NCBI RefSeq assembly: GCF_002854065.1
Contig: NZ_CP024147.1
Length of the DNA: 64,000 nt
Source: Escherichia coli
Lineage (GTDB): Bacteria; Pseudomonadota; Gammaproteobacteria; Enterobacterales; Enterobacteriaceae
Reading direction: 5' to 3' (one strand)
The translations under genes were made by a program, and so were the position numbers. Below the pieces are notes generated by a model. That model was not told where the DNA came from, ran no database searches, and saw nothing but the letters and a program-made list of their open reading frames with translations. This document shows, one piece after another, positions 53,530-64,000 of the stretch. How positions within the stretch are numbered: the stretch's first letter is position 1; each line of letters opens with the position of its first letter.

Positions 53530-54417
53530 TTATCGGGTCATGTTGATGCCGGATGCTTTCTGCTCCAGCATACGTTTCGCCAAATCCACAATGACGGCTG
53601 CGGCTTCAACCGGCGGCGTGCCGCCCTGGTGAATGTTAGAGATACAGGTGCGATCGGCCTCAACGGTGGTCGCCATACGCGGCGAGTAAACGGCGTAGCA
53701 GGAGAGGCTTTCTGACTGACCCAACCCCGGACGTTCGCCCACCAGCAGGATCACTACTTTCGCGCCGAGGATCTCACCGATCTGATCTTCAATCTTCACG
53801 CGACCATAACGAACAAAGAATGGTGTACCGACTTTCAGCCCGGCCTGTTTCAGCCCCGCCATCAGCGGTGGCAGGATCTCTTCGTAGTTCACGGTGATCG
53901 CATCAGTTGACAGGCCATCAGAAATAACGACCTGTACGTCCGGATTAGCAACACACTGTGCTTTCAGCGCTTCAACAGCTTCTGCACACAGGCGGCGGCC
54001 CATATCCGGGCGAGTCAGGTAGAGATTTTTGTCGCTAATTTCAGAGCGTACTTCCAGCAAGCCCTGCGCTTTCACCCACTCTTCCGGCACTTCTTTAAGT
54101 ACGGTATCTTTCGAACGAGAGTGATCGGCCAGGAAACGCAGCAACGCCTGGGTACGCGGACGCGGACCGGCACGACCGGTACAAACGCGGGCCACGGTGC
54201 TGCGACGCAGTTCTGTTAACACATCCGCACGATGTGGGTTTTCAACACCAATCCACGCTTTTGCTTCCGCAGAACCTAAATCCAGCGCACAGCTTTCCGA
54301 GGTCACCGGTGCCGCACAGGTGGTAGTGGCGCACTTTGCTTCTGACGGCGCGGGGGCCGTTTGTCCCATTGACGCCATCACGCTGCGTACAATTTCTTCA
54401 ATCTGTTTTTGATCCAT
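53530..54417 (-). CDS. eutC: Ethanolamine ammonia-lyase small subunit EutC
   Basis: 295 aa. Confidence 0.9.
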
Positions 54418-54437: not shown

Positions 54438-55799
54438 TCAGAAGAACAGTGACGGATCGCCCGCCCGTTTGATCAAGCGACCGTTTGCCATAATGCCCAT
54501 GCTTTCCAGCCAGCGTTCAAACTCCGGTGACGGGCGCAGGTTGAGTAACTGACGCACAGTGGCAGTGTCGTGGAAGGCGGTGGTCTGGTAGTTGAGCATG
54601 ATGTCATCGCCCAACGGCATCCCCATGATGTAATTGCAGCCTGCGGTGGCGAGCAGGATCATCAGGTTTTCGTTGAGGTTCTGGTCAGCGTCAGCGTGGT
54701 TGGTGTAACAGCAGTCACAGCCCATAGAGATGCCGCTCAGCTTGCCCATAAAGTGATCTTCTAAGCCCGCACGGATAATCTGGCGGTCGTTGTAGAGATA
54801 CTCCGGCCCAATAAAGCCGACCACGGTGTTGACGATAAACGGATCGTAATGACGCGCCAGCCCATAGTTACGTGCTTCCATCGTCACCTGGTCTGCGCCG
54901 AAGTTAGCGCCAGCGGATAGCGCTGAACCTTGTCCGGTTTCGAAGTAGAGGCAGTTTTCCCCGGCGATACGGTTGAACTCTGCACCCACTGCGCGCGCTT
55001 CGTCGAGCATCGCCAGTTCCACGCCAAACTCTTTCAGCCCTTTTTCACTGCCACAGATACTCTGGAAAATCAGCCCGCCTGGTGCGCCACGACGAATCGC
55101 TTCGATCTGGGTGGTGACGTGCGCCAGTACGCAGCCCTGAGTTGGGATGTTGAATTTGTCGATCACGCCATAGATGGTGTCCAGCACGCGGCTTAAGTTT
55201 TCCACGTCGTCAGTCACCGGGTTAACGCCGATCACCGCATCGCCCACCCCGAAGGAAAGCCCTTCGTAGATTTGCGCGGCGATACTTTGCACGTCGTCAC
55301 GGGTGTCATTTGGCTGCAAACGGGCGCTGAAGGTGCCCGGAATACCGATGGTGGTATTGGCCTTTTTGATTACCGGCATTTTCTTCGCGCCGTAGATCAG
55401 GTCCGCGTTGGAGCAAATCTTCGCTATCGCCGCGACCACTTCCGAGGTCAGCCCTTTGCGGGTAAAGGTAATGTCGTCCACGCTGGTTTCATCGCTCAGC
55501 ACATACTCACGCAGTTCGCTGATGCTCCAGTTTTTAATCTGGTTGTAGGCCGTTTCGTTAACATCGTCCTGAATCAGCCGCGTCACGCAGTCATCTTCAT
55601 AGGCAATCACCGGATTATTGCGGATGTCCGCTACGGTCATTTCCGACAACACCTGCTTTGCCGCCACGCGCTCCTGTGAACTTGCCGCTGCAACGCCTGC
55701 CAGCACATCCCCCGAACGCAGTTCGTTGGCTTTAGCCAGCACCTCTTTTACATCCTTAAACTGATATACATTGCCGAACAATGTGGTCTTTAGTTTCAT
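54438..55799 (-). CDS. eutB: Ethanolamine ammonia-lyase large subunit EutB
   Basis: 453 aa, MKLKTTLFGNVYQFKDVKEVLAKANELRSGD. Confidence 0.95.
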   Translation of the reverse strand: MKLKTTLFGNVYQFKDVKEVLAKANELRSGDVLAGVAAASSQERVAAKQVLSEMTVADIRNNPVIAYEDDCVTRLIQDDVNETAYNQIKNWSISELREYVLSDETSVDDITFTRKGLTSEVVAAIAKICSNADLIYGAKKMPVIKKANTTIGIPGTFSARLQPNDTRDDVQSIAAQIYEGLSFGVGDAVIGVNPVTDDVENLSRVLDTIYGVIDKFNIPTQGCVLAHVTTQIEAIRRGAPGGLIFQSICGSEKGLKEFGVELAMLDEARAVGAEFNRIAGENCLYFETGQGSALSAGANFGADQVTMEARNYGLARHYDPFIVNTVVGFIGPEYLYNDRQIIRAGLEDHFMGKLSGISMGCDCCYTNHADADQNLNENLMILLATAGCNYIMGMPLGDDIMLNYQTTAFHDTATVRQLLNLRPSPEFERWLESMGIMANGRLIKRAGDPSLFF

Positions 55800-55986
55800 A
55801 AGTCGTTCCCTCAGGAAGAAGTGATGAGTAACATTTCTTCCAGCATTCGAACAATTCTATTTCATCGTTAGCCCTTGTCCTGTAAGGTAATTGTCTTAAC
55901 ACGCCCGTTATTCATCATGCCGAACGCAACCGAACGCGCCGGATACATGATCGGGTTTATCCAGTCGTTATGTCGAGGTATCCGGT

Positions 55987-57192
55987 TTGAGCAAGACACC
56001 ACTCACAGCAAAGGCCATCGCAGCCGCGCAGCCAAAAGACAAGCCCTATAAACTCACCGATTCACTGACGCCAGGACTGTTTTTGCTGGTGCATCCCAAC
56101 GGCAGCAAATACTGGCGATTCAGGTATTGGTTGAATAAACGAGAGTTTTTGCAGGCCATTGGTGTTTACCCGCTAATCACACTCAAAGAAGCACGCAGAC
56201 GCGCCACAGAGAGCCGATCTCTGATTGCTAATGGAATTAATCCAGTGGAAGAAGCACGCAAGGAAAAAGCCATTGATGCGCTCAACATGGCGGCAGGTTT
56301 TAAGACGGTAGCGGAGGACTGGCTGGCTACCAGGGTCAGCGGGTGGTCAGAGTCCTACACGAAACAGGTTAGATCGGCACTGGAAAAAGATGTTTACCCC
56401 GTGCTGGGGAAGCGGTCAATTGTCGATATAACGGCCCGTGACGTGCTGGAATTGCTTCAGAAGAAAGAGCGTACCGCACCGGAACAAGCCAGGAAGCTAC
56501 GCCAGCGTATCGGGGAGATCTTCAAATTTGCCGTTATCACCGAACTGGTGGCAAGAAATCCGGTTGCAGATCTGAACACAGCACTAAAAGCCCGCCGTCC
56601 GGGCCACAACGCATGGCTGCAAATTAACGAAATTCAGGCGTTCTATGAAGCACTTGAGAGAGCCGGGAGCGTCCAGATTCAGACGGCAATACGTTTGCTC
56701 ATATTGAGCGCTCTAAGGACGGTGGAACTGCGTAAAATGCGCTGGGAATGGGTTAACCTGGAAGACGCGATCATCACCCTACCCGCTGAAGTCATGAAGG
56801 CCCGTCGCCCGCATGTGGTCCCGCTATCACGGCAGGCGGTAGAGCTATTGCAGGACCAGTTTACTCGCACCGGATACAGCGCTTTCGTCTTCCCTGGTCG
56901 ATTCATGGATAAGCCCTTGTCTGCCAGCGCGATACTGAAAGCCCTGGAGCGTATCGGATACAAGTCGATAGCCACAGCACACGGCTGGCGTACAACGTTC
57001 AGCACGACGCTTAACGAGTCCGGCAGGTACTCACCAGACTGGATTGAAATCCAATTGGCCCACGTCCCGAAGGGTGTACGCGGTGTATATAACCAGGCGG
57101 CCTATCTCAAACAGCGCCGTCAAATGCTTCAGGACTACGCCGACGCCATTGATTCAATACTGGCTGGTGAAGGTAATCCGCTGGAACCGTGA
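55987..57192 (+). CDS. intZ: P4-type tyrosine integrase (IntZ-like, CPZ-55-type prophage)
   Basis: 401 aa, apparent TTG start; catalytic R (LRTVELRKMRWEWV), HxxR (HGWRTTFST) and Tyr (GVYNQAAY) regions. Confidence 0.85.
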   Translation: MSKTPLTAKAIAAAQPKDKPYKLTDSLTPGLFLLVHPNGSKYWRFRYWLNKREFLQAIGVYPLITLKEARRRATESRSLIANGINPVEEARKEKAIDALNMAAGFKTVAEDWLATRVSGWSESYTKQVRSALEKDVYPVLGKRSIVDITARDVLELLQKKERTAPEQARKLRQRIGEIFKFAVITELVARNPVADLNTALKARRPGHNAWLQINEIQAFYEALERAGSVQIQTAIRLLILSALRTVELRKMRWEWVNLEDAIITLPAEVMKARRPHVVPLSRQAVELLQDQFTRTGYSAFVFPGRFMDKPLSASAILKALERIGYKSIATAHGWRTTFSTTLNESGRYSPDWIEIQLAHVPKGVRGVYNQAAYLKQRRQMLQDYADAIDSILAGEGNPLEP

Positions 57193-57198
57193 ACTATA

Positions 57199-57224
57199 AG
57201 GCCGGATTCGTCCGGCTTTTCTTT
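57199..57224 (+). terminator. Terminator after integrase
   Basis: GGCCGGA-TTCG-TCCGGC hairpin followed by TTTTCTTT. Confidence 0.7.
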
Positions 57225-57231
57225 CGCTAAT

Positions 57232-57259
57232 TATTCCACTATTCCAATTAAGTGGAATA
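57232..57259. promoter_or_regulatory. Inverted repeat (candidate operator) between int and the 255-aa gene
   Basis: TATTCCACT-ATTCCAATTA-AGTGGAATA, perfect 9-bp arms. Confidence 0.4.
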
Positions 57260-57418
57260 AATTATTCAATATCAAAAACTTACATCAATATTGCAACAAT
57301 AAAAACGGTGGCTTATGATCAGATCATGATTTTCGGTATGTGAACAGCAAAAACAAGAAGCCCGGAAAGGCGGCAACCAATCCGGGCGATATGGGAAAAG
57401 AGATTAGGAGGTTTCCCC

Positions 57419-58186
57419 ATGCGTAATAGTTTAGCAGTTCGCTTTAGCTTGCAGCAAGGCGAAGAATTATCACAGGAATATCAATTCATCAAATACGAAG
57501 AAGCGCCGGAACAGGTGCAAATAGCTTTTGATGATCAGCACTACGGCAACACTATCCGCTACGACGGTAAAAAATGGTTTCTCAATCCGGTAACAAATGC
57601 CATTCACGTATGTCAAATCATTACGCCAGTAAATAACAGCGCGGATAACGATTCGGCTATTGACGCTGAACTGGTGACAGAACCACTACCGCCACCGCCG
57701 CCAGTACAAGAAAGCGATGTAAAACCCGACGCCATCGATCTGACAGCAGAAGCCAGAGAGCGCAAACAACCGAAGCCGGAACAACCGCAAGCCAAGGATA
57801 ACAAACAGTGGCACGGTAACACGGCGTATCTGAATACGTTTGCTTGTCATCTTCATGAAGTGCTACCACAGGCCATCTATAGCACATGGTGCGACAAACA
57901 AACGGCGGCACACTTCCACCTGCTTTACGCGCTTTGCTACCTGGCAAGCTACGAAAACAAAGATGAAGGTATCGAGCTTGGCGAGGTGTTATATGGTGCT
58001 GAAAAGATCACAAAGGGCGGCGTAGTACCTGGTTTCCATATGGCCCGATCAACGTTCGATATCAAGATTAACGAGCTTGAACAGTGGGGATTAATCAAGG
58101 TAACACGAGGTAAGAAACGTAAGGACGGGCAAGGCAACTTGCCGAACAGTATCAAACTGAACTTTAAGCCGTACAGTTTAAAATAA
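57419..58186 (+). CDS. Prophage hypothetical protein with Pro-rich linker and possible C-terminal winged-helix DNA-binding domain
   Basis: 255 aa; AGGAGG SD 8 nt upstream; N-terminal domain, LPPPPPVQ...PKPEQPQ linker, C-terminal STFDIKINELEQWGLIKVTRGKKRK. Confidence 0.6.
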   Translation: MRNSLAVRFSLQQGEELSQEYQFIKYEEAPEQVQIAFDDQHYGNTIRYDGKKWFLNPVTNAIHVCQIITPVNNSADNDSAIDAELVTEPLPPPPPVQESDVKPDAIDLTAEARERKQPKPEQPQAKDNKQWHGNTAYLNTFACHLHEVLPQAIYSTWCDKQTAAHFHLLYALCYLASYENKDEGIELGEVLYGAEKITKGGVVPGFHMARSTFDIKINELEQWGLIKVTRGKKRKDGQGNLPNSIKLNFKPYSLK

Positions 58187-58194
58187 TCACACTA

Positions 58195-58220
58195 GGCGGG
58201 CAATGTTCCCGCCTTTTCTT
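58195..58220 (+). terminator. Terminator after the 255-aa gene
   Basis: GGCGGG-CAATGTT-CCCGCC followed by TTTTCTTT. Confidence 0.7.
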
Positions 58221-58243
58221 TGCCTCAATCCTATAAAATTCAC

Positions 58244-58282
58244 ATCCCGAAAATCGGTATCTGGGTATCCCGAAAATCGGTA
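58244..58282. repeat. Two tandem 16-bp direct repeats, each internally palindromic
   Basis: ATCCCGAAAATCGGTA at 58244-58259 and 58267-58282 (core CCGA-AAA-TCGG), 23-bp spacing. Confidence 0.7.
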
Positions 58283-58289
58283 AGTAATA

Positions 58290-59400
58290 ATAAGTATTAT
58301 CCTTAAAGGTAAAAACCATATAAGTAAGATCTATCTCTTCAAGAATGTATATATTCACTACGTTCATATATACATGAGAAGTTTCCCTTTCATGCAGTCA
58401 AAACTACATTCATCAGCATCGCTTTCTGCGCTCTCCTTCCCAGCAAGCTGGAAAGGCCCATTCACTCACGCACAACCTGCAAACCAGACCAACATACCAT
58501 CATGGCGATTCGTTCATGGGTAGCGCGGGTATATCTCAAAGGGTGATTTCTTCTTGGTGGACCTTCGGAAGACTTCGAGCAATCGCCAGCTCAAAAGACG
58601 GTCTGGCAGTGATGGTTATCATCGACAGCATTGAGCGCTACCGCGCCAACTTACAGCAGCAGGATAACTACCGAAGGAAAACCCACGCCGAAAGGGATTG
58701 ACTCACTGCAAAGCCAATGGGTTTTATCAGCGTATACAGACCAGACAGGAAACAGCAGCAAAGCAGCGTATAGCCAGGTGCAGACAGTACCATCACACAA
58801 CGCACAGCAGGCTGAGGTGAACACTCAAACAGGTTTATCCCCGCAGCCGACCAACGCAAACCATCCTGACCGTGCCAAATTCGAACGGAATGGTGCCTGT
58901 AACGCGATGAACACATATAACCGCTTACTTGCTTACCTGAAAACTTCACGTCGCCACAGAGCGATTTAGACGCATTATAATTGATGCGATTTCATTAAAT
59001 TTTCACCAGACACCGGAACAACGCCGATTAATCCAGGAATGGATTCATCGACATGCGCCGCTTTCCCCGCAGAACAGTCTCGCCTGAATAGTCTCACCAA
59101 CCAGATTTCAGATTGTCCAATCAGGCACGTCTCATTAAACGACAGAATGCGGCCTACAACGCCATCGCTGCCGATCTCGTTTGAGCAAGGTGCTGAGACT
59201 GAATGACGGACGCCCACTCCTCAGAGCTGAGGAATCGCCACACAGAACGCTGAGATCTGATATTACCGCCGCACCATTCCACGCCAGACGAATCAATCTA
59301 ATCACACCTGAGCAAATGCATTGCCAAAAATTAAGGCCGTCAGAATGCGTTATATTGCGTTTAAACGGCATCTAATTTTAATTAGTTTTGATGTGGTGAT
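58290..59400. other. ORF-poor prophage segment with only short overlapping ORFs; possible gene remnants or noncoding RNA
   Basis: No ORF over 112 aa on either strand across about 1.1 kb; the largest is S/T/Q-rich and of low complexity; contains an AT-rich 10-bp inverted repeat ATGTATATAT/ATATATACAT (58345-58375). Confidence 0.4.
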
Positions 59401-59668
59401 TGCAGGCAAAAAAAATCCCGCCGGAGAGAGCGGGGAAGTGAAATCAATCGTTGTAGTTATAGATCACATTTTGAGTAAGGGTTACCAGCCCTTGAGTAAT
59501 ATTATCCCTGTATTACGTGAGATGCGCAATTATTTTTTGCTAATTAAAAGTTTTGTAAACATTACAGAATATCCCCTTTCCCTATATGGTAAAAGATGTG
59601 AAACAGGGACATGAGGAATATAATATTAAGTATCAACAGTAATGTTGGTCTTTAATTTCATTCAGGGC

Positions 59669-59710
59669 GCGGTGAGGGTTTTCCCATATTTTTCCTCACC
59701 GCTACTTTTT
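59669..59710 (+). promoter_or_regulatory. Hairpin plus T-run directly upstream of the alpA-like gene ribosome-binding site
   Basis: GCGGTGAGG-16 nt loop-CCTCACCGC followed by TACTTTTT and then GAGGTGAGAACATG. Confidence 0.45.
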
Positions 59711-59721
59711 GAGGTGAGAAC

Positions 59722-59913
59722 ATGAATGATAGCGAATTAATGACGGTGAGCGAGGTAGCCGCTTTATTCGGCGTTACCCGACGCACTATATTCCGCTGGC
59801 TGAACAAGATTAAAGGTTGGCCCGTTCCGGTTACTCCGGTCGGTGCACGAATTAAGTTTATCCGATCTGAGATTTTGGAATTCTATAAAAACAAAGGCGC
59901 TCGCCACCAATGA
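59722..59913 (+). CDS. AlpA/Xis-family small HTH DNA-binding protein (prophage regulator or excisionase-like)
   Basis: 63 aa, LMTVSEVAALFGVTRRTIFRWL HTH; SD GAGGTGAG. Confidence 0.7.
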   Translation: MNDSELMTVSEVAALFGVTRRTIFRWLNKIKGWPVPVTPVGARIKFIRSEILEFYKNKGARHQ

Positions 59914-59989
59914 AAACAGCTACTGAGATTATCAAATAACCTATTGATTTAATAAGCTAGCTACCGCAATTTCTGAAGGAATAGGCAGC

Positions 59990-60316
59990 ATGAAAATCAA
60001 AGCAAACACAATTAAAGAAATAACATCAATCAAAGTAAAAGGAGCAGATGCCATGCATTCATTAGACAGTTATTTTCAGCGCACGACAGCCCCTAAATCA
60101 GCCGCCCAGGAACGCCGTGAGGAATTCCAGGAAAAAGTGATGCGTTCTGCTGATTATATTGCGGACAAGTTCGTGGAAACGGTTCGGCCACTTGTTGATG
60201 AAGTAGCTGATAAACTTCAGTCTGAAATGCCGGAAGACATGGAAGGCACTGCAAAGGCGCGACTCCTTTTTGAATTAAGTCGTCGTTTCGGCGTGTCAAT
60301 AAGCACTTTTAAATAA
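59990..60316 (+). CDS. Hypothetical prophage protein
   Basis: 108-aa ORF, AAGGA SD, co-directional tight spacing with neighbours. Confidence 0.5.
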   Translation: MKIKANTIKEITSIKVKGADAMHSLDSYFQRTTAPKSAAQERREEFQEKVMRSADYIADKFVETVRPLVDEVADKLQSEMPEDMEGTAKARLLFELSRRFGVSISTFK

Positions 60317-60333
60317 TCGGAGGAGAAAAGACA

Positions 60334-60876
60334 ATGGACGCATTTGATGTACTGACAAACAAAGGCGATGAACTGGTAGCACAGCGTGATAAAACCGCCA
60401 ACGAAGGGGAACGCGCACTGTTAAATAAGCAGATTAAAGCGATCCGTATGGCCCAGTTTAAATTAATCAGCAATGAAGTTATCGAAATAATTAAACCGCA
60501 GATCCCACAAATCGTTGCTGACGCTATTAAAGCCGCCGGACTGGAGAAACGCATTGCCGGGCTGAAAACGAACGCAGAGAAAATGGAGATGCACAAACAG
60601 AGCGGTGCTCCGACTCCGGATGAGTACTTCTCACCGGATGCTGAGTTTATGGCGCAGGTTGAGGAACGTCTGGGTAGCTGTCTCACCGAGGAACAGCGTC
60701 GCTATTTTGATGGAGTGGATAGTTCGGCAGGTATTGACCTGAACTCGTGTTTCGGTCGTGAAATTGAGCATTTTGATGCCGCCCCGTCTATGCCGGAGCC
60801 AGAACCAGAAATGGCCGCCGATCCTGAAGCTGAGCAACGGAAACGCGTATTCAATGCGATAGGGATTCGGTACTGA
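60334..60876 (+). CDS. Hypothetical prophage protein (acidic C-terminus)
   Basis: 180-aa ORF with strong GGAGG SD 8 nt upstream. Confidence 0.6.
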   Translation: MDAFDVLTNKGDELVAQRDKTANEGERALLNKQIKAIRMAQFKLISNEVIEIIKPQIPQIVADAIKAAGLEKRIAGLKTNAEKMEMHKQSGAPTPDEYFSPDAEFMAQVEERLGSCLTEEQRRYFDGVDSSAGIDLNSCFGREIEHFDAAPSMPEPEPEMAADPEAEQRKRVFNAIGIRY

Positions 60877-60927
60877 TCGGATAAAAGAAAGCCGGGAATT
60901 ACCCCGGCTGACTTAACAATGTGACCA

Positions 60928-61302
60928 ATGAACAAATCGGACAAGACAAACAGGATAAGCAGTCTCGAAACAATGTTCGGGAACTATATTAGCACAAGTC
61001 CGGAGAAAATCATCATGTTGGCACTACGCATCATGCAGGGCATCGCTAAGACCCTCGCAGAACATGTCTTAGACCTGAAACATTCGCCACTGAGCAAACA
61101 GGCCATGAAGCGCCAAACGCTTCGTCTGTGGGCTGAATATTCGCTTGGAACTATCAATAAAATCATCGACATGAAATCGGGGCCGAGCAACCAGAGCGCG
61201 GAGGAAATGGAGTTCATCAGGCGTTTAATTCTCATTCGCAGAGATATTCATAGCCAGTTACACAGCGTGGGAATCGATATTAATGATGGGACGGGCGATT
61301 AA
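60928..61302 (+). CDS. Hypothetical prophage protein
   Basis: 124-aa ORF; weak SD, start uncertain. Confidence 0.45.
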   Translation: MNKSDKTNRISSLETMFGNYISTSPEKIIMLALRIMQGIAKTLAEHVLDLKHSPLSKQAMKRQTLRLWAEYSLGTINKIIDMKSGPSNQSAEEMEFIRRLILIRRDIHSQLHSVGIDINDGTGD

Positions 61303-61340
61303 TTTTCGGACAAGTACAATGCGCGCGCGAGGAGCTGAAC

Positions 61341-61571
61341 ATGAAGCAAGATATTGCAGACAGGCTGGAGATACTCGAAGGCCAGCGGGCAGAAGCGAAA
61401 CAACTACGTAAGCAGGCCAGAAGAGCGCACAGGAACTACGAAGCAGAATCACTGACCGCTTTCATCAACTTCACAAACCGTTGCATCCAGGAGTGTTACA
61501 GGGAGGATGCAGAAAACTGGCTGGATTCATTGCCAGAACAGACTCTGCATGAACTGAACGGCGACCAGTAA
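61341..61571 (+). CDS. Hypothetical prophage protein
   Basis: 76-aa ORF with GAGGAG SD. Confidence 0.5.
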   Translation: MKQDIADRLEILEGQRAEAKQLRKQARRAHRNYEAESLTAFINFTNRCIQECYREDAENWLDSLPEQTLHELNGDQ

Positions 61572-61859
61572 ATAAATCCAGTACGTTTCCCGCAGTGCGC
61601 ATAACGTACATTATGTGAAAAACGATATGGATGTATATCAGTATTGATTTCATTGAGAAAACTGGGTTTTCAGTGGCACAGACAAAGAAGCATAGCTGAT
61701 ACAGCTTTATAAGCCATTGATTCTATTAAGTGATGTTTTTTGTGATTGGTTGAAGCAAACCAAAACACGATGCCACTGAAGCGTTAATAAACTGTTTCAA
61801 TGTGAAATTATTAGAGTAAAGAACAATTTGGAGGGTCCGCAAACGCGGATAACAATATC

Positions 61860-64000
61860 ATGAGTGGAAATCTCGGGACCATATACTACGAGGTCGATGC
61901 CCGCACTGGGAAACTTCTTATCGCGCAACAGCAGGCGGAAGAGGCGTTCGATCGCATTGAACGAGGAGCGCGGAAGGCTGATAGCGGCGTCAAAAAGTTA
62001 AATACGCAGATGACTAAAACATCAGCCGCAGTCAAAACCAACCTTTCCCCGGCAATCCGTAACGCATCATACCAGATCGCAGACCTTGCCACTCAATTGC
62101 AGATGGGCGGTAATGCGCTTCAGGCGTTCGCTGTGCAGGGTGCGCAGTTATTAGCTGGCTTTGGCACGATGGGCGCGGTAGCTGGCGCGGTGCTGGCTAT
62201 CGCTGGCGCTATGGGTGGAAGCCTGGCACAAGGCGCTGATAGTGCAGCCGGATCGGTTGAGTATCTGGACAAGGCGATCACCAAACTGAACGAGGTCATA
62301 GCTGTAAATGAACAGGGCGTGACGGTGATGAGTGATAGTTACGCCAGACTTTCTAAGGTTAACGCTGAAGTAGCGAAACAGATGCGGAACATGGCTGAAA
62401 TTCAGGCAATTGCAGCACTGCGTGACCTGAAAGAACAGGCAAGCCAGGCACAGGGGGAAATGTCGTCATTCTGGCGCAGCTTGCAGGGTGGTAAAGCTGA
62501 CGCAGCAGCAGCAGCACAGGCACTTGATGATCTTGGAATCACAACCAACGACTACAAAGAGGCGATAGCCATACTGAACGCCAATCAGCCGGATACACAG
62601 GCGCAAATGGCAACGCTAGCCAAATCCGTGATGTATGTTGGAGAGCAATATGATCTGACCAACCAGCAAGCATACGAATTTATACGCGCACTAAATAAGG
62701 CCGCGACAACGAAAACGCCGGAAGCCATGCAGGAGCTATCTGGCTTCATGCAGGTTTTGCTTCAGGATACCGAAAACGGTAACGAGGCATTCCGTGAACT
62801 GGCTATCAAATTCGTCGATGCACAAACCAAAGGCGCAATGTTGGAGGACCAACTAAACCGACTGAAAGGCGCTATTAGTGACGCAGCCACAGAAGCCAGA
62901 AACGCAAACTTTACCACTATGCTCAACACCGTCGCCGCACGCCTGGCAACCATTGAGCAAGGTTGGGAGGCAGGCGTTAGGATGCAGATGAAAGCCCAGG
63001 GCTACACTGAAGAGCAGATCGATGAATATGTGAACATGGAAACGGCGTACCGTGATGCAAAAGCCGCTTTGGACGAGAAGAACAAGGCCGACCGTGAAGC
63101 TATTGCGCTATCCAAACGCCAGGCCGCAGAAGCAGCCCGCAAGGCAAAACAGGAAGAAGCTGAAGCACAACGCAAGGCCAAACAGTTAGCCGCGCAGAAG
63201 GAGCAGGCAGGACGCTTTACGCAGCAAGTAATGACGGAATACCTGACGACCGTAGATCCGGCAACAGGCAAGGCGTTTAACCCTGCCGCACAAGTAGAAA
63301 TGCAGGAGCAGCAGAAGAAAGCGGCGCTGGATAAATACAGACAGTTGGGCGTCCTGGATGAACAGCAGTACCAGAACACGCTAACCGCCATCCAGAAAAC
63401 CGCGTCAATGCGCCGCCAGCAAATCATCAAAGACGAGGCCGACACGTTATTCAACAATCAGCAACAGTTGATCGGCACATTTGGCGATTTCTTCGGTGAA
63501 CTGTCTGGAGTCATAGCAGACGGTGCAGGTGAGCAAAACGCGGCATATCAAGCGCTATTTGCTGTGCAGAAGGGTTTTGTATTGGCATCAGCAGCTTTAA
63601 GCCTTCAGAAAGCGCTTGCTGAGGCAAACGCCTTGCCTTTCCCGGCTAATCTTCCGGCCTATGCGCAAGCTATGTCAGCAGGTACGCAGATCATTTCAGC
63701 TATTCGTGGAATAGCTTTCGGTGGCGGACGCTACAACGGCGGCGCGGTTGGTGCTGGCAACCTGTACCGCGTGGGTGAACACGGTAAGCCTGAGATATTC
63801 AAGGCGAACAATGGCAGCCAGTACATGATCCCAGGTGATAACGGTCGCGTGATAAGTAATCGTGACATTGGCGGCGGTGGCGGCGTAACAATCAACAGCC
63901 CGATCACCATTAACACTACGAATGGCTTCAGTGATGAAGACTCAAGGCGTCTTGAGGAAGCGATGAAGCGCGTAGCTATGGGCGTTTGCAGGCAGGAGTC
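61860..64000 (+). CDS. Phage tail tape measure protein, 5' part; ORF runs off window end
   Basis: Open frame from ATG 61860 to the window end (over 700 codons; absent from the ORF track because no stop); hydrophobic Gly/Ala-rich segment, long A/Q/K-rich coiled coils, GNLYRVGEHGKPEIF motif resembling lambda gpH. Confidence 0.65.
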   Translation, partial: MSGNLGTIYYEVDARTGKLLIAQQQAEEAFDRIERGARKADSGVKKLNTQMTKTSAAVKTNLSPAIRNASYQIADLATQLQMGGNALQAFAVQGAQLLAGFGTMGAVAGAVLAIAGAMGGSLAQGADSAAGSVEYLDKAITKLNEVIAVNEQGVTVMSDSYARLSKVNAEVAKQMRNMAEIQAIAALRDLKEQASQAQGEMSSFWRSLQGGKADAAAAAQALDDLGITTNDYKEAIAILNANQPDTQAQMATLAKSVMYVGEQYDLTNQQAYEFIRALNKAATTKTPEAMQELSGFMQVLLQDTENGNEAFRELAIKFVDAQTKGAMLEDQLNRLKGAISDAATEARNANFTTMLNTVAARLATIEQGWEAGVRMQMKAQGYTEEQIDEYVNMETAYRDAKAALDEKNKADREAIALSKRQAAEAARKAKQEEAEAQRKAKQLAAQKEQAGRFTQQVMTEYLTTVDPATGKAFNPAAQVEMQEQQKKAALDKYRQLGVLDEQQYQNTLTAIQKTASMRRQQIIKDEADTLFNNQQQLIGTFGDFFGELSGVIADGAGEQNAAYQALFAVQKGFVLASAALSLQKALAEANALPFPANLPAYAQAMSAGTQIISAIRGIAFGGGRYNGGAVGAGNLYRVGEHGKPEIFKANNGSQYMIPGDNGRVISNRDIGGGGGVTINSPITINTTNGFSDEDSRRLEEAMKRVAMGVCRQE

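What the first reader, a model, noticed from the sequence alone, without database searches (positions are those of the whole stretch)
57419..58186. 255-aa island protein with Pro-rich linker and putative winged-helix C-terminus
This is the first gene after int. It has an N-terminal domain, a PPPPP/PKPEQPQ linker and a basic C-terminal segment (STFDIKINELEQWGLIKVTRGKKRK) that looks like a DNA-binding winged helix. It is flanked by a perfect inverted repeat upstream (57232-57259) and tandem palindromic repeats downstream, so it may be a regulator or replication-initiator acting on those sites. I could not assign it to a known family.
Basis: inference. Interest (0 to 1): 0.4.

Follow-up and report, generated by a model that had tools for sequence, protein, structure and literature searches.

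The report
Winged-helix protein with cognate repeat array
The first gene after the integrase of an E. coli island in the eut operon encodes a small protein with a predicted DNA-binding winged helix. It sits between matching DNA repeats that change together with it from strain to strain, so it is most likely the island's origin-binding (replication) protein or a self-regulating regulator; this is a plausible first function for the K-12 mystery gene yffL, but not a new principle.

Summary
ORF 57419-58186 (+) is a real 255-aa gene under purifying selection (dN/dS 0.11-0.19), annotated "hypothetical protein" in RefSeq. It lies in a CPZ-55-type island inserted between eutB and eutA.

AlphaFold predicts three parts:
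- a low-confidence beta-rich N-domain
- a disordered Pro-rich linker

It matches no curated family. Its C-domain is homologous to that of K-12 YffL, which sits at the same position.

Every island variant carries the same layout: promoter, gene, terminator, 2-6 tandem repeats about 22-23 bp apart, then an AT-rich stretch. The repeat sequence differs with each DNA-binding-domain type. In three types a copy also overlaps the gene's own promoter (here 57320-57344).

Best reading (about 0.5): an autoregulated, iteron-binding replication-initiator-like protein with an adjacent origin. Main rival (about 0.28): a purely transcriptional regulator. Nothing is shown biochemically. Interest is modest.

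The parts
55811..55818 (.). TCAGGAAG, the 8-bp sequence reported as duplicated at the ends of CPZ-55. It marks the left end of the island, next to eutB.
   Evidence: Sequence read. The duplication is reported in PMC6379469.
55987..57192 (+). intZ, a tyrosine integrase
   Evidence: Pfam Arm-DNA-bind_3, Phage_int_M and Phage_integrase. RefSeq annotates it as intZ.
57201..57225 (+). Hairpin GCCGGA-TTCG-TCCGGC followed by TTTTCTTT, probably the int terminator
   Evidence: Sequence. The scan flagged the same hairpin. It is conserved in all variants.
57231..57260 (.). It is not specific to this protein.
   Evidence: It is shared with K-12 CPZ-55 upstream of yffL and absent from islands L008, L009, L011 and L012.
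57291..57319 (+). Predicted sigma-70 promoter of the gene (TTGCAA, 17 nt, TATGAT)
   Evidence: Both hexamers are conserved in the other alleles.
57320..57344 (-). Operator-like inverted copy of the downstream repeat (reverse complement TTCACATACCGAAAATCATGATCTG). It lies directly after the -10.
   Evidence: Its core changes together with the protein allele and the downstream repeats.
57360..57421 (+). 5' leader with two hairpins: GCCCGGA...TCCGGGC (57360-57387), and a second that pairs the Shine-Dalgarno sequence and the AUG
   Evidence: z = -2.8. The first stem is kept by compensatory changes in K-12 and L017.
57419..57622 (+). N-terminal domain, residues 1-68, predicted beta-rich at low confidence
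   Evidence: It is homologous to the N-terminus of the 257-aa protein at the same position in island L010 (E = 5e-6).
57623..57817 (+). Pro/Glu/Lys-rich linker, residues 69-133, predicted disordered
   Evidence: pLDDT 28-45. It is the most variable part outside the helix-turn-helix.
57818..58186 (+). C-terminal winged helix-turn-helix domain, residues 134-255 plus the stop codon. The recognition helix is residues 210-222 (58046-58084).
58194..58214 (+). Rho-independent terminator of the gene
   Evidence: It is identical in the ORF255-type and YffL-type variants.
58239..58282 (+). Array of two tandem repeats (TTCACATCCCGAAAATCGGTATCTG and GGTATCCCGAAAATCGGTA), 23 bp apart; the candidate iterons or operators
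   Evidence: Other strains carry 3 copies. Each protein type has its own repeat sequence.
58283..58385 (.). AT-rich stretch (70-78% AT against 48% for the window), including the inverted repeat ATGTATATAT / ATATATACAT at 58345-58375; a candidate DNA-unwinding region

Best explanation
ORF255 is the sequence-specific DNA-binding protein of a self-contained cassette: promoter and operator, gene, terminator, tandem repeats, AT-rich stretch. This cassette sits just after intZ in CPZ-55-type islands.

Most likely it works like an iteron-type replication initiator:
- Its C-terminal winged helix binds the 23-bp-spaced repeats at 58239-58282.
- The adjacent AT-rich DNA (58283-58385) would be the melting site.
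- The inverted copy at 57320-57344, directly after the -10, lets the protein repress its own promoter.
- The island encodes no helicase or primase. The conserved N-terminal domain would therefore have to recruit the host's or a helper phage's replication machinery after excision.

Shown (computationally only): the fold, the repeat layout, and the co-variation of protein and repeats.

Inferred: DNA binding itself, autoregulation, origin function and replisome recruitment.
For: 1. Fold.
- The AlphaFold model of residues 126-255 has pLDDT 79 and pTM 0.77, with helix-turn-helix plus beta-hairpin wing topology.

2. Weak but consistent sequence links to phage initiators.
- YffL matches PHROG 270 'replication initiation protein' (E = 5.4e-4) and PHROG 186 'DnaD-like helicase loader' (E = 9.6e-4).
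- The positional homologue in L010 matches PHROG 8102 and 1032, 'replication initiation protein' (7.7e-4, 1.9e-3), and Pfam HTH_36 (3.3e-5).
- ORF255's own C-domain matches the same two PHROGs as YffL, but only at E = 0.11 and 0.17.

3. Layout. All four protein types are followed by a terminator, then 2-6 direct repeats about 22-23 bp apart (some units are degenerate or further apart), then AT-rich DNA.

4. Co-variation.
- Each type has its own repeat: CCGAAAATCGG, GTAAAAATTAC, GGGTCAAAAGTTGCCG or GTGTGACATTTGGGA.
- Between the window allele and the GTAAAAATTAC alleles, 9-11 of 30 residues differ in the helix-turn-helix segment, against 2-5 of 61 in the domain core.
- Positions 211, 215, 219 and 222 differ; by their i, i+4, i+8, i+11 spacing they should lie on one face of the recognition helix (inference, from the alignment).
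- The promoter-proximal copy changes in the same way while its flanks stay conserved.

5. The repeats track this gene and not other island proteins.
- L003 and L010 have 98%-identical AlpA-like proteins and 96%-identical integrases but different first genes and repeats.
- L006, L007 and L008 share the same first gene and repeats but have different AlpA-like and small-terminase genes.

6. The motif occurs nowhere else in the islands.

7. Copy number differs between near-identical islands: 2 or 3 for the window type, and 2 to 5 for the YffL type. Tandem binding arrays tolerate this; fixed promoter architectures usually do not (inference).

8. No other island gene looks like a replication protein. 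Characterised PICIs place the origin, with iterons and an AT-rich region, directly 3' of rep (PMC6092414).
Against: - There is no biochemical or genetic evidence.
- ORF255 itself does not reach significance against any replication family.
- The window-type and L008-type repeats are palindromic, and two or three palindromes 23 bp apart also look like phage operators.
- There is only one repeat set, whereas E. coli PICI origins are described with two sets flanking the AT-rich region.
- No DnaA box lies nearby.
- The gene is outside the alpA-led operon and has its own promoter, unlike PICI rep genes.
- K-12 mobilome sequencing saw no extrachromosomal CPZ-55.
- The co-variation rests on few independent events, and the sites are physically linked to the gene.
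Confidence: 0.5

Rival explanations
1. ORF255 is purely a transcriptional regulator. It would be an autorepressor, possibly the island's immunity or master repressor. The downstream repeats would be operators of a rightward promoter that reads through the roughly 1.1-kb untranslated region into the alpA-like gene. The N-terminal domain would sense a helper-phage protein.
For: - The predicted fold is a winged helix, and CRP/FNR, CodY, MarR, PadR and Fur-type regulators are among the best structural matches.
- The window-type and L008-type repeats are palindromes spaced like lambda-type operators.
- A copy sits on the gene's own promoter.
- The gene occupies the position next to int where SaPIs carry Stl. 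A repressor for Gram-negative PICIs has not been identified (PMC6092414).
- Divergent specificities among close relatives also fit heteroimmunity.
- The alpA-like gene is preceded by a conserved terminator hairpin. This suggests transcription arrives from far upstream.
Against: - The scan found no promoter-like site next to or after the array on the + strand.
- The motif is absent from the alpA-proximal region.
- The YffL-type and L010-type repeats are direct 23-24-bp units without dyad symmetry.
- Copy number is polymorphic.
- The weak family matches are to replication initiators, not repressors.
- Complete islands already carry an XRE-type, repressor-like gene at the other end (PHROG 2328 and PHROG 8).
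Confidence: 0.28
2. The protein binds the array for another DNA-handling purpose, for example as a centromere-like partition or anchoring site, a packaging accessory site, or an architectural factor for excision.
For: Tandem direct repeats with variable copy number next to a small autoregulated DNA-binding gene also describe plasmid centromere modules (established knowledge, not tested here). The repeat layout is shown.
Against: - No partition ATPase or other partner gene is present.
- The array lies about 2.4 kb from the island end, too far for recombination arm sites.
- The array type does not track the small-terminase gene.
Confidence: 0.08
3. The repeats are bound by a different protein (the integrase arm-binding domain, the AlpA-like protein or the small terminase), and ORF255 has an unrelated function.
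For: The integrase has an arm-type DNA-binding domain. The physical linkage of sites and gene could by itself produce apparent co-variation.
Against: - L003 and L010 have near-identical integrase and AlpA-like proteins but entirely different repeats.
- L006, L007 and L008 have identical repeats with different AlpA-like and small-terminase genes.
- The amino-acid differences between alleles concentrate in the helix-turn-helix segment.
- In L013 the promoter copy switches with the protein allele even though its flanks are window-like.
Confidence: 0.07
4. The gene, bounded by the inverted copies at 57320-57344 and 58239-58263, is a small transposable cassette.
For: There is an inverted repeat of 25 nt at 84% complementarity, with arms 894 nt apart.
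Against: - No transposase domain was found.
- In the YffL type the upstream copy is in direct, not inverted, orientation.
- The cassette is always at the same place after intZ. tblastn found it in no phage record and in only one plasmid record, as part of a whole CPZ-55 copy.
Confidence: 0.03

Closest known systems
E. coli K-12 YffL (b2443), first gene after intZ in cryptic prophage CPZ-55
   Same: - Same position after intZ.
- The same terminator sequence follows the gene, then a tandem repeat array.
- The C-terminal domains are homologous: 28% identity over 134 residues, E = 9e-11.
   Different: - YffL lacks the beta-rich N-domain and the Pro-rich linker.
- Its repeat is GGTGGGTCAAAAGTTGCCGTTA x4 rather than CCGAAAATCGG x2.
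- YffL has no assigned function. The literature found mentions it only as a NarL-associated hypothetical gene.
Phage replication initiators with a winged helix that binds origin iterons (lambda O-like, DnaD-like; PHROG 270, 186, 391; Pfam HTH_36)
   Same: - A small protein with one winged helix, a flexible linker and a second domain.
- Iterons are followed by an AT-rich stretch.
- Specificity modules are exchanged between relatives.
- There are weak matches of YffL and the L010 homologue to these families.
   Different: - The winged helix is C-terminal here, not N-terminal.
- The repeats lie after the gene, not inside it as in lambda (established knowledge).
- ORF255 itself scores only E = 0.11-0.17.
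- No partner helicase loader is encoded in the island.
PICI / SaPI replication module (Pri-Rep followed by an origin with iterons)
   Same: - The origin-like repeat array and AT-rich region lie directly 3' of the gene.
- Repeat specificity differs between islands.
- The island context includes an integrase, an AlpA-like gene and a small terminase.
   Different: - There is no primase or helicase domain.
- There is one repeat set rather than two.
- The gene lies upstream of alpA with its own promoter.
- The islands carry a tape-measure gene, which is not among the PICI features described in PMC6092414.
Vibrio PLE RepA and staphylococcal plasmid RepA (RepA_N initiators)
   Same: - The satellite paper (PMC7145576) was retrieved by a PICI/iteron search, but only its abstract opening was read. 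That PLE RepA is a DNA-binding-only initiator binding iterons in a non-coding region and depending on the helper replisome is from my own knowledge.
   Different: There is no detectable sequence relationship, and the domain order and host differ.
Iteron-plasmid Rep proteins (RepE, pi, RepA; Pfam Rep_3)
   Same: Iterons about 22 bp apart, plus an inverted partial copy at the rep promoter used for autorepression. This is established knowledge about these plasmids, and the layout seen here matches it.
   Different: Those proteins have two winged-helix domains. ORF255 has one and does not match Rep_3.

Membership tests
Winged helix-turn-helix DNA-binding fold | Three-helix core with a helix-turn-helix, followed by a beta-hairpin wing | tested here: met
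YffL-like proteins of intZ (CPZ-55-type) islands | Homologous C-terminal domain | tested here: met
   BLASTP E = 9e-11 over residues 124-255 against YffL 90-213. The conserved motif is W-x-GN-xx-YL-x-T...VLP...Y..W...ALCY.A...FKPY.
YffL-like proteins of intZ (CPZ-55-type) islands | First gene after intZ, followed by the conserved terminator and a tandem repeat array | tested here: met
Phage replication initiators (PHROG 270/186/391, Pfam HTH_36) | Significant match to the family profile | tested here: inconclusive
   ORF255 C-domain: E = 0.11 and 0.17. YffL: 5.4e-4 and 9.6e-4. L010 homologue: 7.7e-4, and HTH_36 at 24.0 bits against a cut-off of 25.
Phage replication initiators (PHROG 270/186/391, Pfam HTH_36) | Cognate iterons next to an AT-rich unwinding region | tested here: met
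   Two to six direct repeats about 22-23 bp apart, then about 100 nt at 70-78% AT. This is sequence evidence only.
Phage replication initiators (PHROG 270/186/391, Pfam HTH_36) | Supports origin-dependent replication and recruits a helicase or loader | not testable with these tools
   Needs a plasmid maintenance or copy-number assay and interaction tests.
Iteron-plasmid Rep_3 initiators (RepE/pi/RepA) | Two tandem winged-helix domains and a match to Pfam Rep_3 | tested here: not met
   No Pfam match at E <= 1. Only one winged helix is predicted.
PICI Pri-Rep | Primase and/or helicase (NTPase) domain | tested here: not met
   No Pfam, NCBIfam or PHROG match of that kind. The protein is 255 aa, and half of it is predicted to be linker and a small beta-rich domain.
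CI/Stl-type master repressors | XRE-type helix-turn-helix, and operators at the promoter of the lytic or induction operon | tested here: not met
   No HTH_3 match. The motif is absent near the alpA-like gene. No promoter was predicted at the array. A regulatory role is not excluded by this.
Insertion sequence / transposase | Transposase catalytic domain, and copies at multiple sites | tested here: not met
   No domain was found. There is one place per genome, always at the eut site.

The most novel reading that the evidence does not exclude
The ORF255/YffL cassette would be the replication module of an unclassified family of E. coli phage satellites at the eutA-eutB site. Their gene order is integrase, origin-binding protein and origin, long untranslated leader, AlpA-like gene, Sf6-type small terminase, tape-measure protein.

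In this reading a helicase-less initiator uses its exchangeable winged helix to mark the origin and its N-terminal domain to capture a helper phage's or the host's replisome. This would give K-12 yffL its first function and recast CPZ-55 as a decayed satellite rather than a prophage remnant.
Probability: 0.3. Interest if true: 0.55.

Novelty: new variant of a known kind. Interest (0 to 1): 0.35.

Why it matters
If correct, this gives a testable first function to yffL, a K-12 gene still listed as uncharacterised, and to its relatives.

It also identifies a compact, exchangeable protein-plus-site cassette. Its three or four natural specificities could serve as orthogonal DNA-binding or origin parts.

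It suggests that the CPZ-55 'cryptic prophage' family consists of small satellites with their own replication module, rather than random prophage debris.

The mechanism itself, a winged-helix protein on tandem repeats with autoregulation, is textbook. The gain is annotation and context, not a new principle.

Tried and rejected
Searches that found nothing useful:
- Pfam, NCBIfam, PADLOC and PDB sequence searches of the full protein gave no hits. PHROGs gave one meaningless weak hit.
- The word-indexed search of 5.8 billion proteins found only E. coli alleles at 87% identity or more.
- Searching with YffL and with a C-domain profile added nothing beyond these two groups.
- The exhaustive phmmer search of 1.84 billion representatives found only the protein's own cluster and fragments. 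No deep alignment could therefore be built.
- tblastn against 50,697 phage records found no match. Against plasmids there was one match: a transposed CPZ-55 copy on a Klebsiella plasmid.
- A profile search against PDB sequences gave only insignificant AsnC and winged-helix hits.

Structure comparisons that did not discriminate:
- Foldseek of the full-length model against the PDB had no hit at E <= 0.001, although the top hits were predominantly winged helices.
- Foldseek of the C-domain model against viral models was weak, E >= 3.8e-3.
- The AlphaFold database library was not available.
- hhalign of the ORF255/YffL C-domain profile against the L010 C-domain aligned only the helix-turn-helix (probability 17%). 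The two DNA-binding domains are therefore analogous, not demonstrably homologous.

Sequence features looked for and not found:
- Rfam found nothing above threshold in 55800-64000.
- RNAalifold on the conserved non-coding block gave no convincing structure.
- No DnaA box lies near the array, and the only IHF consensus match is about 1 kb upstream at 57270.

Statistical caveat:
- The upstream-to-downstream repeat match in the window alone is only borderline against shuffles: 16 of 20, reached by 2 of 60 shuffles. The argument rests on co-variation across variants, not on this number.

Rejected explanations:
- Integrase arm sites, AlpA or terminase sites, and an insertion-sequence-like cassette were all rejected (see the rival explanations).

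Full report
**Context.** The window is E. coli chromosome. eutC (53530-54417) and eutB (54438-55799) lie on the minus strand. They are followed by a tyrosine integrase on the plus strand (55987-57192), which RefSeq names intZ. In K-12 this is the site of the cryptic prophage CPZ-55, between eutB and eutA. The finding's ORF is the first gene after intZ. The DNA from 57150 to 58400 is present at 99% identity or more in 29 of 5,426 complete E. coli genomes, always on the chromosome. The gene is annotated there as 'hypothetical protein' WP_032281400.1.

**The observation.**
- the 255-aa ORF with a strong Shine-Dalgarno sequence
- the PPPPP and PKPEQPQ stretches
- the basic C-terminal segment
- the perfect 10 + 10 inverted repeat at 57231-57260
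- two exact 16-nt copies of ATCCCGAAAATCGGTA at 58244 and 58267, each containing the palindrome CCGA-AAA-TCGG

The gene is real. Against three other alleles, dN/dS is 0.11-0.19.

Two features were missed. A rho-independent terminator (58194-58214) separates the gene from the repeats. A third, inverted and partly degenerate copy of the repeat lies at 57320-57344, directly after the -10 of the only good promoter-like site upstream of the gene (TTGCAA, 17 nt, TATGAT, 57291-57319).

**Fold.**
- With only eight related sequences, the full-length AlphaFold model is poor overall (pLDDT 57). It still divides the protein into a beta-rich N-domain (residues 3-68, low confidence), a disordered linker (69-133) and a helical C-domain.
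- Modelled alone, the C-domain reaches pLDDT 79 and pTM 0.77. It shows classic winged-helix topology, with recognition helix 210-222 and a wing formed by strands 226-230 and 242-247.
- The fold cannot separate initiators from transcription factors.

**Relatives.**
- No curated library recognises the protein.
- The large protein searches find only E. coli alleles at 87% identity or more. An exhaustive scan of 1.84 billion representatives finds only its own cluster.
- A tblastn hit on a Klebsiella plasmid led to the key relative, K-12 YffL. YffL occupies the same position after intZ, and its C-domain is homologous (E = 9e-11).
- A third positional homologue is the 257-aa protein in island L010 (WP_001023816.1). 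It shares ORF255's N-domain (E = 5e-6). Its C-terminal helix-turn-helix is different and falls just under the Pfam HTH_36 cut-off.
- The family is therefore modular. Two kinds of N-terminus are combined with at least two kinds of winged helix.
- Against PHROGs, the significant or near-significant matches of YffL and the L010 protein are nearly all 'replication initiation protein', 'O-like' or 'DnaD-like helicase loader' families, alongside a few generic HTH DNA-binding families. ORF255's C-domain matches the same two families as YffL, but only at E = 0.11 and 0.17.

**The cassette and its co-variation.** Comparing islands from complete genomes, assemblies and metagenomes shows one constant layout:
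1. int terminator
2. promoter
3. a leader with a conserved hairpin
4. the gene
5. a terminator
6. tandem direct repeats
7. an AT-rich stretch

The repeat sequence depends on the protein type:

| Protein type | Repeat | Copies and spacing |
|---|---|---|
| Window type | TCCCGAAAATCGGTA | x2-3, 23 bp apart |
| 87-89% alleles | CACATCGTAAAAATTAC | x3-6, mostly about 22-23 bp apart |
| YffL type | GGTGGGTCAAAAGTTGCCGTTA | x2-5, 23 bp apart (TRF: 3.9 copies, 95% match in K-12) |
| L010 type | ACGTGTGACATTTGGGAYACAGGT | x4 |

Further points:
- The motif occurs nowhere else in each island except, in three of the four types, once in the gene's own promoter region. That copy is inverted and just after the -10 in the ORF255 types. 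In the YffL type it is direct and, on my reading of the sequence, overlaps the -35 (18-19 of 20 matches, reached by 0 of 60 shuffles).
- In the promoter alignment the flanks are nearly invariant. The 12-nt core switches between CATGATTTTCGG and CGTAAGTTTTAC together with the protein allele. This holds even in L013, whose flanks are window-like.
- On the protein side, the window allele differs from the others at 9-11 of 30 residues in segment 195-224, against 2-5 of 61 in the domain core.
- Within the recognition helix the changes fall at 211, 215, 219 and 222; by their i, i+4, i+8, i+11 spacing they should lie on one helical face (inference).
- The repeat type follows this gene and no other island protein. 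L003 and L010 have 98%-identical AlpA-like proteins and 96%-identical integrases but different first genes and repeats. L006, L007 and L008 share the gene and repeats but differ in the AlpA-like and small-terminase genes.
It is replaced by other sequence in islands carrying close ORF255 alleles. It belongs to a different mosaic segment.

**Mechanism.**
- The layout is an autoregulated small winged-helix gene, a terminator, direct repeats about two helical turns apart with polymorphic copy number, and about 100 nt at 70-78% AT. This is the layout of iteron-type origins.
- Characterised PICIs place their origin directly 3' of rep (PMC6092414).
- Complete islands of this family are about 12 kb. 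In order they encode:
  - an integrase
  - this protein
  - a 1-2 kb stretch with few or no called genes
  - an HTH_17 AlpA-like protein
  - small ORFs
  - an Sf6-type small terminase
  - a roughly 725-aa tape-measure protein (PHROG 1538, E = 1.7e-101)
  - an XRE-type regulator
- They have no recognisable primase, helicase or other initiator.
- I therefore favour an origin-binding, initiator-like role with autorepression (confidence 0.5).
- Because no helicase or loader is encoded, replication would have to depend on host or helper-phage proteins recruited through the N-domain. That step is pure inference.

**Main rival (0.28): a purely transcriptional regulator.**
- For: the window-type sites are palindromes spaced like phage operators. 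The gene sits where SaPIs carry Stl. CRP-type regulators are nearly as good structural matches as initiators.
- Against: no promoter is predicted at the array. The YffL and L010 repeat units lack dyad symmetry. Copy number varies between near-identical islands. The island already has an XRE-type repressor candidate.
- Minor rivals (another array-binding role, sites bound by another protein, an insertion-sequence-like cassette) are weakly supported or contradicted. See the rival explanations.

**Comparison with known systems, and novelty.**
- ORF255 is a member of the uncharacterised YffL-like group; the homology and synteny tests were met.
- It works like phage O-type or DnaD-type initiators, or PICI and plasmid Rep-plus-iteron modules, but membership in those families is not established. 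The profile match is inconclusive. Rep_3 and Pri-Rep membership were tested and not met.
- The winged helix is C-terminal rather than N-terminal. The repeats lie after the gene rather than inside it, and no helicase partner is encoded.
- I rate it a new variant of a known kind, of modest interest (0.35).
- The gain is a testable function for a K-12 y-gene and a clearer picture of CPZ-55-type islands as satellite-like elements. All functional statements are computational inferences.

Noticed in passing
window 58437-58625 (also L004 6200-6390 in K-12): A block of about 190 nt in the 'gene-free' gap is conserved in the ORF255- and YffL-type islands, including K-12; L010 keeps only its 3' part (window about 58558-58625). 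The variants differ by single-nucleotide indels, so it is unlikely to be coding. There is no Rfam hit, and RNAalifold gives only a weak consensus structure on either strand. Its function is unknown.
   Followed up: partly
window 59669-59710, just upstream of the HTH_17 (AlpA-like) gene at 59722-59913: A terminator-like hairpin (GCGGTGAGG...CCTCACCGC, then a U-run) sits immediately before the gene's ribosome-binding site (z = -3.8). Other variants keep the hairpin with a different stem sequence, GGCGGCTG...CAGCCGCC. This suggests attenuation or antitermination control of the alpA-led operon, with transcription arriving from the long upstream leader.
   Followed up: partly
window 59408-59617, minus strand: A strong minus-strand terminator (CCCGCTCTCTCCGGCGGG followed by T8, 59434-59417) is conserved with compensatory changes. 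A promoter-like site lies at 59559-59532. There is also a sub-threshold Rfam GcvB match (19.9 bits against a gathering score of 42). This may be a small leftward RNA. It overlaps the 89-aa ORF that RefSeq annotates at 59345-59614.
   Followed up: partly
window 61860-64000 (+), running off the window end: This large ORF is a phage tail tape-measure protein. Pfam TMP_2 is weak here, but the homologue in L008 matches PHROG 1538 at E = 1.7e-101. Complete relatives of this 12-kb island also carry an Sf6-type small terminase. An integrase + AlpA + small terminase + tape-measure element of this size looks like an unclassified phage satellite.
   Followed up: partly
window 57360-57421: The leader of ORF255 folds into two hairpins, and the second pairs the Shine-Dalgarno sequence and the start codon. 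The first stem is preserved by compensatory changes in K-12 and the metagenome variants. This may indicate translational or RNA-stability control.
   Followed up: partly
L004 5258-5899 (K-12 yffL): The annotated 213-aa YffL probably starts too far upstream. Its first 38 codons cover the conserved leader hairpin. An AGGAG ribosome-binding site precedes Met39 (MSDMLAV). In other strains the upstream frame is closed, giving 169-aa proteins. K-12 has also lost the promoter-proximal repeat copy that L011, L012, L026 and L027 retain.
   Followed up: partly
L001 22818-23515 and L002 23313-24010 (strains that match the query region at 100%): In the two strains identical to the window over 57150-58400, an IS1 truncates the island and abuts maeB. 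The whole eutA-to-eutS half of the eut operon is therefore deleted. In other strains the same left module is joined to a gadC / glutamate-racemase cargo.
   Followed up: no
L005 (Klebsiella pneumoniae plasmid pHK02-026, NZ_KY751926.1 86570-93044): A complete copy of K-12-type CPZ-55 (integrase to yffS) sits on a conjugative IncFIA/IncR resistance plasmid, between ISEc23 and mph(A).
   Followed up: no
window 57231-57260: The perfect inverted repeat contains TATTCCA twice in direct orientation plus one inverted copy. It is shared with K-12 but replaced by a different palindrome-rich segment (ACTAGTTTACTAG...CTACTAGT) in other islands. What binds it is unknown.
   Followed up: partly
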